A stretch of 64,000 bases of DNA from Escherichia coli (GTDB lineage: Bacteria > Pseudomonadota > Gammaproteobacteria > Enterobacterales > Enterobacteriaceae): assembly GCF_024298765.1 (NCBI RefSeq), contig NZ_CP101210.1; one strand, 5' to 3'. Under the pieces are notes generated by a model, which worked only from the letters and a program-made list of their open reading frames with translations, was not told where the DNA came from and did no database searches. A program made the translations under genes and the position numbers. Positions 4,727 to 5,539 of the stretch are shown in pieces. The stretch's first letter is position 1; each line of letters starts with the position of its first letter.

Positions 4727-5539
4727 ATGATCACACGCAGGCGTTTTTTACAGGCAGCCGCTGCGACGTTAGCTGCCGGATCAAGCCTCAGCTATATGCA
4801 TTATTGGGAACCTGGCTGGCTTGAATTAATCCGTCACCGCCTCGCCTTTTTTAAAGACAACGCTGCTCCTTTCAAAATCCTTTTTCTGGCAGATCTCCAT
4901 TACTCTCGTTTTGTTCCTTTAAGCCTGATTTCTGACGCAATTGCTCTTGGCGTAGCACAAAAGCCCGATTTGATATTGCTGGGCGGCGATTACGTATTAT
5001 TTGATATGCAGCTGAATTTTTCGGCGTTTAGTGACGTACTCTCCTCCCTTGCCGAATGTGCGCCGACATTTGCCTGTTACGGCAACCACGATCGCCCTGT
5101 TGGTACAGAGAAAAATCGCTTAATTGGCGAGGCATTAAAATCGGCGGGGATCACGGTGTTATTTAACGAAGCCATGCTAATCACCACTCAAAAGCAGCAA
5201 TTTGAACTGGTTGGCACGGGTGATTTATGGACCGGACAATGCAAACCGCCTCCCGCCAGCGAAGCAAATCTGCCACGACTGGTGCTGGCGCATAATCCCG
5301 ACAGCAAAGAAGTCATGCGTAATGAAAAGTGGGATCTGATGCTCTGTGGTCACACCCACGGCGGGCAGTTACGCATACCGTTGGTTGGTGAGCCTTTTGC
5401 GCCCATAGAAGATAAACGCTACGCCGCCGGTTTAAATGCCTTTGGTGAGCGACAAATTTACACGACTCGGGGTGTCGGAAGTTTGTATGGCTTGCGTCTG
5501 AATTGCCGCCCGGAAGTGACAATCCTGGAACTGGTGTAG
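4727..5539 (+). CDS. yaeI: Calcineurin-like metallophosphoesterase with twin-arginine signal peptide
   Basis: The track ORF starts at 4433 and overlaps dapD. The in-frame ATG at 4727 gives 270 aa beginning MITRRRFLQAAAATLAAG (Tat motif), with metallophosphoesterase motifs (GDLHYS, GNHD, GHTHGG). Confidence 0.85.
   Translation: MITRRRFLQAAAATLAAGSSLSYMHYWEPGWLELIRHRLAFFKDNAAPFKILFLADLHYSRFVPLSLISDAIALGVAQKPDLILLGGDYVLFDMQLNFSAFSDVLSSLAECAPTFACYGNHDRPVGTEKNRLIGEALKSAGITVLFNEAMLITTQKQQFELVGTGDLWTGQCKPPPASEANLPRLVLAHNPDSKEVMRNEKWDLMLCGHTHGGQLRIPLVGEPFAPIEDKRYAAGLNAFGERQIYTTRGVGSLYGLRLNCRPEVTILELV

What the first reader, a model, noticed from the sequence alone, without database searches (positions are those of the whole stretch)
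4727..5539. Twin-arginine signal on the YaeI metallophosphoesterase
The N-terminus MITRRRFLQAAAATLAAG matches the Tat motif, implying export of a folded, metal-loaded phosphoesterase to the periplasm. Its physiological substrate is unclear. The ORF track's longer start would hide the signal peptide.
Basis: partly seen in the sequence, partly recalled or inferred. Interest (0 to 1): 0.2.

Follow-up and report, generated by a model that had tools for sequence, protein, structure and literature searches.

The report
Known Tat signal on E. coli YaeI
The gene is E. coli yaeI, a two-metal phosphoesterase whose N-terminus carries a well-conserved twin-arginine export signal; the feature is real but already annotated, and it matches a proven Tat-exported Bacillus relative, so it is ordinary.

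Summary
Window 4727-5539 (+) is E. coli yaeI, with the same start as RefSeq, and it encodes MITRRRFLQAAAATLAAGSSLSY... The 368-aa "long ORF" (TTG at 4433) is an artefact: it overlaps dapD and runs through the dapD terminator.

- **Motif is not chance.** 106 of 109 full-length homologues (42-90% identity, several phyla) keep RR within the consensus [I/L][S/T]RRx[F/L]L. NCBIfam TAT_signal_seq passes its cut-off. In the whole window only yaeI, fhuD and gcd carry such a motif.
- **Homology to YkuE.** Similarity to Bacillus YkuE-type enzymes, of which YkuE is a proven Tat substrate, starts exactly at the RR motif.
- **Catalytic residues.** All metallophosphoesterase metal ligands are invariant.
- **Atypical signal.** It is short and only weakly hydrophobic, has no AxA cleavage site, and falls below the Pfam threshold. 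Cleaved-soluble versus anchored is therefore unresolved. I could retrieve no direct localisation data.
- **Novelty.** Already known; low interest.
- **Side observation.** yaeI is accessory in E. coli. It is present in 2084 of 5426 complete genomes and replaced by about 133 bp elsewhere. This window carries a rare allele (74 genomes) that is 87% identical to the K-12 allele.

The parts
4433..4726 (+). Spurious 5' extension of the mechanical ORF (TTG start). It is not part of the gene.
   Evidence: It overlaps dapD (3850-4674) in another frame and contains the dapD terminator. RefSeq starts yaeI at 4727.
4686..4713 (+). dapD intrinsic terminator (8-bp stem with 7 GC pairs, 5-nt loop, T-run), ending 14 nt before the yaeI start codon.
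   Evidence: It is conserved in K-12 and in yaeI-less strains.
4716..4720 (+). Shine-Dalgarno-like AGGGA, 6 nt upstream of ATG 4727.
   Evidence: Read directly from the sequence. K-12 has the same element and spacing.
4727..5539 (+). yaeI coding sequence (270 aa plus stop), phosphodiesterase YaeI.
   Evidence: NF008460 equivalog 507 bits against a cut-off of 188. PF00149 49 bits against 21.5. RefSeq annotation.
4733..4753 (+). Twin-arginine motif T3-R4-R5-R6-F7-L8-Q9.
   Evidence: TIGR01409 19.9 bits against 16.7. Homologue consensus is [IL][ST]RRx[FL]L, RR is present in 106/109, and R4 is invariant in alignment A1.
4745..4792 (+). Uncharged Ala/Gly/Ser-rich h/c-region (F7-S22). The candidate signal-peptidase site S20-L21-S22|Y23 is not a canonical AxA site.
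   Evidence: Maximum mean Kyte-Doolittle hydropathy over 11 residues is 1.55; the range for 17 listed E. coli Tat signals is 1.41-2.21. Over 19 residues it is 0.81, below a TM-helix level. Small residues occupy position -1 in 95/109 homologues.
4793..4825 (+). Conserved Y23-x-[R/H]-x-x-E28-P-x-W-L-E33 element that links the signal to the first beta-strand.
   Evidence: Y in 100/109, E in 109/109, P in 96/109, W in 97/109. It is shared with Bacillus YkuE-type proteins. It forms the end of predicted helix 4-30.
4892..4900 (+). Metallophosphoesterase motif I, D56-L-H58.
   Evidence: Invariant in 85 sequences.
4985..4990 (+). Motif II, G87-D88.
   Evidence: Invariant.
5081..5092 (+). Motif III, G119-N-H-D122.
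   Evidence: Invariant.
5291..5299 (+). Motif IV, H189-N-P191.
   Evidence: Invariant.
5348..5359 (+). Motif V, G208-H209-T-H211.
   Evidence: G208 and H211 are invariant; H209 is conserved in >=90%.

Best explanation
yaeI (ATG 4727 to TAG 5539) encodes a calcineurin-like, two-metal phosphodiesterase preceded by a genuine twin-arginine signal. The inferred mechanism is as follows. The enzyme folds and acquires its dinuclear metal centre in the cytoplasm. TatBC recognises T-R-R-R-F-L. The weakly hydrophobic Ala/Gly-rich h-region, together with the basic or His residue just after it, keeps the protein away from Sec. TatA then moves the folded enzyme to the periplasmic side of the inner membrane. 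There it acts as a broad phosphodiesterase on an unidentified envelope or periplasmic phosphodiester or pyrophosphate substrate. Shown here: gene identity, the true start, the motif and its deep conservation, an intact catalytic site, and homology to YkuE-type Tat substrates that begins at the RR motif. Inferred: actual Tat dependence in E. coli, the metal-loading rationale, and cleavage (possibly before Y23). The substrate is unknown.
For: Identity and start. The long ORF is an artefact. The Tat HMM TIGR01409 is above its curated cut-off. RR is present in 106/109 full-length homologues from several phyla; two of the three exceptions have RK; the consensus is [IL][ST]RRx[FL]L; RR-to-E28 spacing is 19-26. 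The signal-region codons are the most diverged part of the gene between E. coli alleles (25 differences in the first 90 nt), yet RRRFLQ is untouched. All 11 full-length Escherichia/Salmonella cluster representatives (P0001-P0011) keep RR. The motif is absent from ~1600 non-genic ORFs in the window. Identity to a Bacillus YkuE-type protein is 31% over 160 aa, starting at TRRRFLQ/SRRQFLK, E=1e-16. A B. subtilis fragment of this family is named 'twin-arginine translocation signal domain-containing protein' by NCBI. [quoted passage not shown] All seven metal ligands are invariant. The AF2 model is confident (pLDDT 95) and shows a metallophosphoesterase fold with an N-terminal helix 4-30. Mean hydropathy over 19 residues is 0.55-0.81, too low for a stable Sec-type TM helix. 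lpxH is essential in E. coli strains of the K-12 lineage that carry yaeI, so YaeI does not supply cytoplasmic LpxG-like activity: plus inference.
Against: Pfam TAT_signal scores 16.1 bits, below its 22.7 gathering score. Only 17/85 homologues hit TIGR01409 at E<=0.01. There is no AxA site, whereas all 17 listed E. coli Tat signals end in A at -1. Only 17 residues separate RR from the best candidate site, against 19-28 in the listed signals. The h-region of the K-12 allele (maximum KD over 11 residues 1.15) is below the range of the listed signals. YaeI is absent from the TATFIND-based E. coli/Salmonella list and from the 25-substrate ExPEC list. No experimental localisation paper for YaeI could be retrieved. 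gcd in the same window shows that an SRRLL motif also occurs on a non-Tat membrane protein.
Confidence: 0.78

Rival explanations
1. The N-terminus is an uncleaved twin-arginine signal-anchor. YaeI would be inserted by Tat but stay tethered to the periplasmic face of the inner membrane by residues ~7-27, placing the active site next to membrane-bound phospho-lipid substrates.
For: There is no canonical AxA site. AF2 predicts one continuous helix 4-30 running directly into the conserved Y-x-R-x-x-E-P-x-W-L-E element and strand 33-39. Relatives in the family are membrane proteins: 4-TMD YkuE-like variants with RR before the last TMD, and LpxG with an N-terminal TM helix. LpxG is the second-best NCBIfam hit.
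Against: Hydropathy over 19 residues (0.55-0.81) is far below TM level. Small residues at -1/-3 before Y23 are compatible with cleavage, although the whole region is Ala/Gly-rich, so this is weak evidence. Tooke et al. treat the short E. coli and B. subtilis forms as soluble, and YkuE is reported as cleaved.
Confidence: 0.2
2. The signal is used mainly by Sec in E. coli. The RR motif would be an inherited but non-essential feature, and the enzyme would acquire metal in the periplasm.
For: [quoted passage not shown] In E. coli YaeI the usual basic residue after the h-region is only His25, where most homologues have Arg. The early mature region has a net negative charge.
Against: The h-region is even less hydrophobic than typical Tat signals, which disfavours Sec. 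RR, the +3 Phe/Leu and the +4 Leu are strictly retained while the rest of the signal diverges rapidly.
Confidence: 0.08
3. YaeI is cytoplasmic or faces the cytoplasm, like LpxG, and the RR motif is not an export signal.
For: LpxG-family similarity (119 bits), and a GO-type annotation as 'lipid A biosynthesis' quoted in PMC7414163. YaeI is absent from several Tat substrate lists.
Against: The LpxG score is far below the 350-bit cut-off. The complete S/T-RR-x-F-L consensus plus an uncharged stretch is conserved across phyla. The positive charge lies on the N-terminal side, which predicts an N-in/C-out orientation. lpxH remains essential in yaeI-carrying E. coli.
Confidence: 0.04

Closest known systems
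E. coli K-12 YaeI (b0164; NCBIfam NF008460 'phosphodiesterase YaeI')
   Same: Same gene and same locus (glnD-dapD-yaeI-yaeH-cdaR), the same start codon, RRRFLQ retained, and all catalytic motifs present.
   Different: Only 87.0% nt and 88.2% aa identity (32 substitutions), while the flanking dapD and glnD proteins are 99-100% identical. The h-region differs at 8 of 16 positions. The window allele is found in only 74 of 5426 complete genomes.
Bacillus subtilis YkuE, a Tat(AyCy)-dependent cell-wall metallophosphoesterase (Monteferrante et al. 2012, as summarised in PMC5449189 and PMC6708511)
   Same: The architecture is the same: S/T-RR-x-F-L, then an Ala/Gly-rich h-region, then G-Y-x-R-Y-x-E/D-P, then the DxH...GD...GNHD domain. 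Identity to a YkuE-type protein is 31% over 160 aa starting at the RR motif.
   Different: YkuE is a Gram-positive enzyme retained on the cell wall, and its RR-to-E/D-P spacing is longer (29 vs 24). Tat dependence and cleavage are demonstrated for YkuE only. Only partial Bacillus sequences were retrievable here.
Polytopic (4-TMD) YkuE-like metallophosphoesterases, dual Sec/Tat-inserted (Tooke et al. 2017, PMC5449189)
   Same: The catalytic family is the same, with a twin-arginine motif directly preceding the last hydrophobic segment before the domain.
   Different: YaeI has no preceding TMDs, and according to that paper it lacks the positively charged patch after the Tat-dependent helix.
Chlamydia LpxG (UDP-2,3-diacylglucosamine diphosphatase; NF033458; PMC4807358)
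   Same: It is a calcineurin-like phosphoesterase with an N-terminal helix and is the second-best NCBIfam family (119 bits; all 85 homologues hit it).
   Different: The score is far below the 350-bit equivalog cut-off. LpxG acts on a cytoplasmic substrate. YaeI does not replace LpxH in E. coli (inference from lpxH essentiality).
Generic metallophosphoesterase fold (Mre11 nuclease domain, GpdQ glycerophosphodiesterase, 5'-nucleotidases)
   Same: Foldseek probability 1.0, TM-score about 0.45-0.53, and the same metal-ligand motifs.
   Different: Identity is 13-18%. No solved structure is detectable by sequence. None of these says anything about substrate.

Membership tests
Twin-arginine (Tat) signal peptide | N-terminal S/T-R-R-x-F-L-K consensus with a (nearly) invariant arginine pair | tested here: met
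   T3-R-R-R-F-L-Q9. RR is present in 106/109 homologues; position -1 is S/T in 79/96, +3 is F/L in 89/96, and +4 is L in 80/96.
Twin-arginine (Tat) signal peptide | Curated HMM thresholds | tested here: inconclusive
   NCBIfam TIGR01409 scores 19.9 bits, above its 16.7 cut-off. Pfam PF10518 scores 16.1 bits, below its 22.7 gathering score. 17/85 homologues hit TIGR01409 at E<=0.01.
Twin-arginine (Tat) signal peptide | Uncharged, moderately hydrophobic h-region after the motif, less hydrophobic than Sec signals or TM helices | tested here: met
   F7-M24 is uncharged. The maximum KD over 11 residues is 1.55, inside the 1.41-2.21 range of 17 listed E. coli Tat signals. The K-12 allele scores 1.15, just below that range.
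Twin-arginine (Tat) signal peptide | c-region with an A-x-A signal peptidase I site | tested here: not met
   No AxA is present. The best candidates are S-L-S|Y23 or A-A-G|S19, and K-12 has G-F-G|Y. All 17 listed E. coli signals end in Ala. Small residues at -1/-3 in homologues are compatible with cleavage but not diagnostic. Some Tat substrates (Rieske-type) are uncleaved, so this lowers confidence in 'cleaved signal', not in 'Tat-targeted'.
Twin-arginine (Tat) signal peptide | Export abolished in tat mutants or by RR-to-KK substitution | not testable with these tools
   No retrievable paper reports it for YaeI. From memory only, Tullman-Ercek et al. 2007 tested the YaeI signal peptide among 29 E. 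coli candidates; I could not verify this.
Calcineurin-like metallophosphoesterase (PF00149) | Motifs DxH, GD, GNH(D/E), H and GHxH that supply the dinuclear metal ligands, plus the alpha/beta sandwich fold | tested here: met
   PF00149 scores 49 bits against 21.5. D56, H58, D88, N120, H189 and H211 are invariant, and H209 is conserved in >=90%. The AF2 model has pLDDT 95 and gives Foldseek hits to Mre11, GpdQ and 5'-nucleotidases.
NCBIfam NF008460, phosphodiesterase YaeI (equivalog) | Full-length score above the curated cut-off | tested here: met
   507.1 bits against a cut-off of 188, covering residues 1-270.
LpxG, UDP-2,3-diacylglucosamine diphosphatase (NF033458) | Full-length score above the curated cut-off | tested here: not met
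   119.3 bits against a cut-off of 350, with the best stretch limited to residues 134-269.
YkuE-type Tat-exported metallophosphoesterases | Homology that includes the N-terminal RR module and the conserved Y-x-R-Y-x-E-P linker | tested here: met
   BLASTP gives 31% identity, E=1e-16, with the alignment starting at T3RRRFLQ / S5RRQFLK.

The most novel reading that the evidence does not exclude
The signal is never cleaved. YaeI would then be a Tat-inserted, N-terminally tethered, LpxG-like pyrophosphatase or phosphodiesterase working on a lipid-linked substrate at the periplasmic face, for example a lipid A or undecaprenyl pyrophosphate species. Its presence, absence and allele polymorphism among E. 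coli lineages would reflect selection on envelope or phage-receptor chemistry; yaeI insertions were enriched after T7 selection in PMC7414163.
Probability: 0.08. Interest if true: 0.5.

Novelty: already known. Interest (0 to 1): 0.15.

Why it matters
The value is mainly in annotation. Choosing the correct start (ATG 4727, not TTG 4433) exposes the export signal and places this phosphodiesterase in the cell envelope rather than the cytoplasm. That narrows its candidate substrates and argues against the inherited 'lipid A biosynthesis' label. The biology of Tat-exported metallophosphoesterases is already established through YkuE, and YaeI's signal is already recognised by annotation pipelines, so no open question is newly unlocked. 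The accessory status and the deep allelic split of yaeI in E. coli are the less expected facts. They show that the enzyme is dispensable for most strains.

Tried and rejected
- **Literature on YaeI and Tat.** Searches for YaeI with twin-arginine, Tat or signal peptide found nothing relevant. Tullman-Ercek 2007, Lee 2006 and Monteferrante 2012 are not held. The supplements of Tooke 2017 do not name YaeI.
- **Solved structures.** The sequence search returned 0 hits. Foldseek against the PDB gave only the generic metallophosphoesterase fold and no substrate clue.
- **Gene neighbourhoods.** Three distant homologues (L005-L007) share no conserved neighbour.
- **Promoter for yaeI.** PMC5105897 lists yaeI among known rpoE (sigma-E) regulon genes, citing its refs 43 and 47; ref 43 is Rezuchova 2003. 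There is no exact sigma-E consensus in the window. There are only two weak matches in the dapD 3' end, at the background rate of 0.8 per kb. The sigma-70 scan found nothing upstream. How yaeI is transcribed across the dapD terminator stays unresolved.
- **TIGR01409 across the homologue alignment.** The model has low power on such short regions (17/85), so I relied on direct motif counting instead.
- **Small residues before Y23 as proof of cleavage.** Rejected, because the whole segment is Ala/Gly-rich.
- **Long TTG-4433 ORF and ATG-4724 start.** Both rejected.
- **LpxG membership.** Rejected.

Full report
**What is there.** The window is Escherichia coli chromosome. Positions 4600-5700 are 100% identical to several complete genomes. 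The local gene order is glnD (1147-3819), dapD (3850-4674), yaeI (4727-5539), yaeH (5697-6083), and cdaR on the minus strand. RefSeq annotates exactly 4727-5539 as 'phosphodiesterase YaeI', and K-12 b0164 uses the homologous start.

**Start codon.** The mechanical ORF list reports a 368-aa ORF from TTG 4433. That extension overlaps dapD in another frame. It also contains the dapD intrinsic terminator, which has an 8-bp stem with 7 GC pairs at 4686-4706 followed by ATTTTTTG. An AGGGA element at 4716-4720 lies 6 nt before ATG 4727, and K-12 has the same element and spacing. The in-frame ATG at 4724 is GCG in K-12.

**Is the twin-arginine motif more than chance?**
- In a six-frame scan of the window (1613 ORF/start combinations of >=60 aa), I looked for [ST]RR.[FL][LIVM] in the first 35 residues followed by 12 uncharged residues. 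It occurs at only three loci: yaeI, fhuD (19120, minus strand) and gcd (48669, plus strand). It occurs in no spurious ORF.
- FhuD is on published E. coli Tat substrate lists.
- Gcd is a polytopic membrane dehydrogenase. It is a reminder that the motif alone is not proof of Tat targeting.
- NCBIfam TIGR01409 (TAT_signal_seq) scores 19.9 bits against a curated cut-off of 16.7. Pfam PF10518 scores 16.1, below its 22.7 gathering score.

**Comparative evidence.** A search of the protein database returned 1367 relatives, of which I used the best 120.
- Of 109 relatives with an intact N-terminus, 106 have RR upstream of the first conserved domain element. Two of the three exceptions have RK.
- The consensus is [I/L]-[S/T]-R-R-x-[F/L]-L.
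- The distance from RR to the invariant Glu (E28 here) is confined to 19-26 residues.
- The set includes sequences named as Verrucomicrobiota, Methylacidiphilales, Bryobacteraceae and Blastochloris, so conservation spans phyla.
- Within E. coli the signal region is the most diverged part of the gene. The first 90 nt differ from K-12 at 25 positions, yet RRRFLQ is untouched. All 11 full-length Escherichia/Salmonella cluster representatives (P0001-P0011) keep RR.
- After the h-region comes a conserved Y-x-[R/H]-x-x-E-P-x-W-L-E element, which is also present in Bacillus YkuE-type proteins.
- BLASTP of YaeI against such a protein gives 31% identity over 160 residues with E=1e-16. The alignment starts at T3RRRFLQ versus S5RRQFLK.
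- YkuE is an experimentally established Tat substrate with a cleavable signal. Tooke et al. [quoted passage not shown]

**The passenger.**
- PF00149 matches at 49 bits.
- All canonical metal-ligand motifs are invariant or nearly so in an 85-sequence alignment: D56-x-H58, G87-D88, G119-N-H-D122, H189 and G208-H-x-H211.
- An AlphaFold2 model built on that alignment is confident (pLDDT 95, pTM 0.90). It shows an N-terminal helix at residues 4-30 followed by the alpha/beta sandwich.
- Foldseek finds only generic metallophosphoesterases (Mre11, GpdQ, 5'-nucleotidases) at 13-18% identity. No solved structure is detectable by sequence.
- One database name for a homologue is 'phosphodiesterase with model substrate bis-pNPP'. 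This agrees with my recollection that YaeI's only known activity is on that artificial substrate.
- A pre-assembled dinuclear metal centre is the standard rationale for Tat export. This step is inference.

**How typical is the signal?** I compared it with 17 E. coli Tat signal peptides listed in PMC7549933.
- YaeI has no A-x-A site, whereas all 17 end in Ala.
- Only 17 residues separate RR from the best candidate site (S-L-S|Y23), against 19-28 in the 17.
- Its h-region lies at the low end of hydropathy. The maximum KD over 11 residues is 1.55 for this allele and 1.15 for K-12, against 1.41-2.21 for the 17.
- Over 19 residues the mean KD is 0.81 (this allele) and 0.55 (K-12). That is too low for a conventional TM helix and argues against a stable Sec-type anchor.
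- Small residues dominate positions -1 and -3 before the conserved Tyr. Because the whole stretch is Ala/Gly-rich, this is only compatible with cleavage, not proof of it.
- YaeI is missing from a TATFIND-derived list and from the ExPEC list, perhaps because of these atypical features.
- Tat targeting is therefore well supported. Cleavage and soluble periplasmic localisation are not settled.

**Relationship to LpxG.** NF033458 is the second-best NCBIfam family for YaeI at 119 bits, far below its 350-bit cut-off. YaeI is therefore not LpxG. lpxH is essential in E. coli strains of the K-12 lineage, which carry yaeI. This is consistent with YaeI being in a different compartment or having a different specificity. 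The 'lipid A biosynthesis' label quoted in PMC7414163 looks like annotation transfer.

**Literature status.** I could not retrieve any paper that reports YaeI localisation. From memory only, the YaeI signal peptide was among the 29 E. coli candidates tested by Tullman-Ercek et al. (2007). With the NCBIfam hit and the Tooke et al. alignment added, the idea is already in the field. I rate the finding 'already known' and of low interest.

**Side observations.**
- yaeI is not a core gene. Its coding sequence is found in 2084 of 5426 complete E. coli genomes: 74 at >=99% identity and 2010 at 80-90%. dapD is found in 5424.
- In the remaining genomes the match stops at the dapD terminator.
- In two examples, dapD is followed by 312-314 bp and then yaeH. 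About 133 bp of unrelated sequence replaces window ~4710-5556, and no YaeI remnant is detectable.
- A pan-genome study had already noted that yaeI is enriched in phylogroup A.
- Against K-12, yaeI and yaeH have dS of 0.50 and 0.66, compared with 0.13 and 0.20 for glnD and dapD. yaeI has dN/dS of 0.12, compared with <=0.02 for its neighbours.
- The dapD terminator ends 14 nt before the yaeI start, and I found no convincing promoter.
- The neighbourhoods of three distant homologues share nothing.

Noticed in passing
window 4710-5556 (compare L003:4076-4387 and L004:4076-4389): yaeI is an accessory gene in E. coli. It is present in 2084/5426 complete genomes: 74 with this window's allele and 2010 with an ~87%-identical K-12-type allele. 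In the rest, about 133 bp of unrelated sequence sits between the dapD terminator and the yaeH upstream region, with no yaeI remnant. Enrichment in phylogroup A was noted in PMC5422975.
   Followed up: partly
window 4727-6083 versus K-12 (L002): Synonymous divergence is locally very deep. dS is 0.50 for yaeI and 0.66 for yaeH, against 0.13 for glnD and 0.20 for dapD. YaeI protein is only 88% identical between the two E. coli strains, while the neighbouring proteins are 99-100% identical. This suggests an old or imported allele block covering yaeI-yaeH.
   Followed up: partly
L003:4111-4243, minus strand (yaeI-less strains): The ~133-bp replacement segment contains a tiny hydrophobic ORF on the minus strand (MGWISTFIFVLRIT*). 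I did not evaluate whether it is a real small gene.
   Followed up: no
window 4686-4726: The dapD terminator ends 14 nt before the yaeI start codon, leaving no room for a promoter. Only weak sigma-E-like matches at 4611 and 4650 were found, at the background rate, although PMC5105897 lists yaeI as a sigma-E regulon gene. Expression may depend on terminator read-through.
   Followed up: partly
window 18233-19120 (-): fhuD encodes MSGLPLISRRRLLTAMALSPLLWQMNTAHA, a twin-arginine-type signal with an AxA site. FhuD is on published E. coli Tat substrate lists.
   Followed up: partly
window 48669-51056 (+): gcd encodes a membrane-bound PQQ glucose dehydrogenase that starts MAINNTGSRRLLVTLTALFAALCGLYLLIGG. 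It has an SRRLL motif in front of a strongly hydrophobic first TM helix. It is a look-alike showing that the motif alone is not diagnostic of Tat.
   Followed up: partly
window 4724-4729: Two in-frame ATG codons are adjacent (4724 and 4727). Only 4727 is conserved in K-12 and has proper Shine-Dalgarno spacing.
   Followed up: yes
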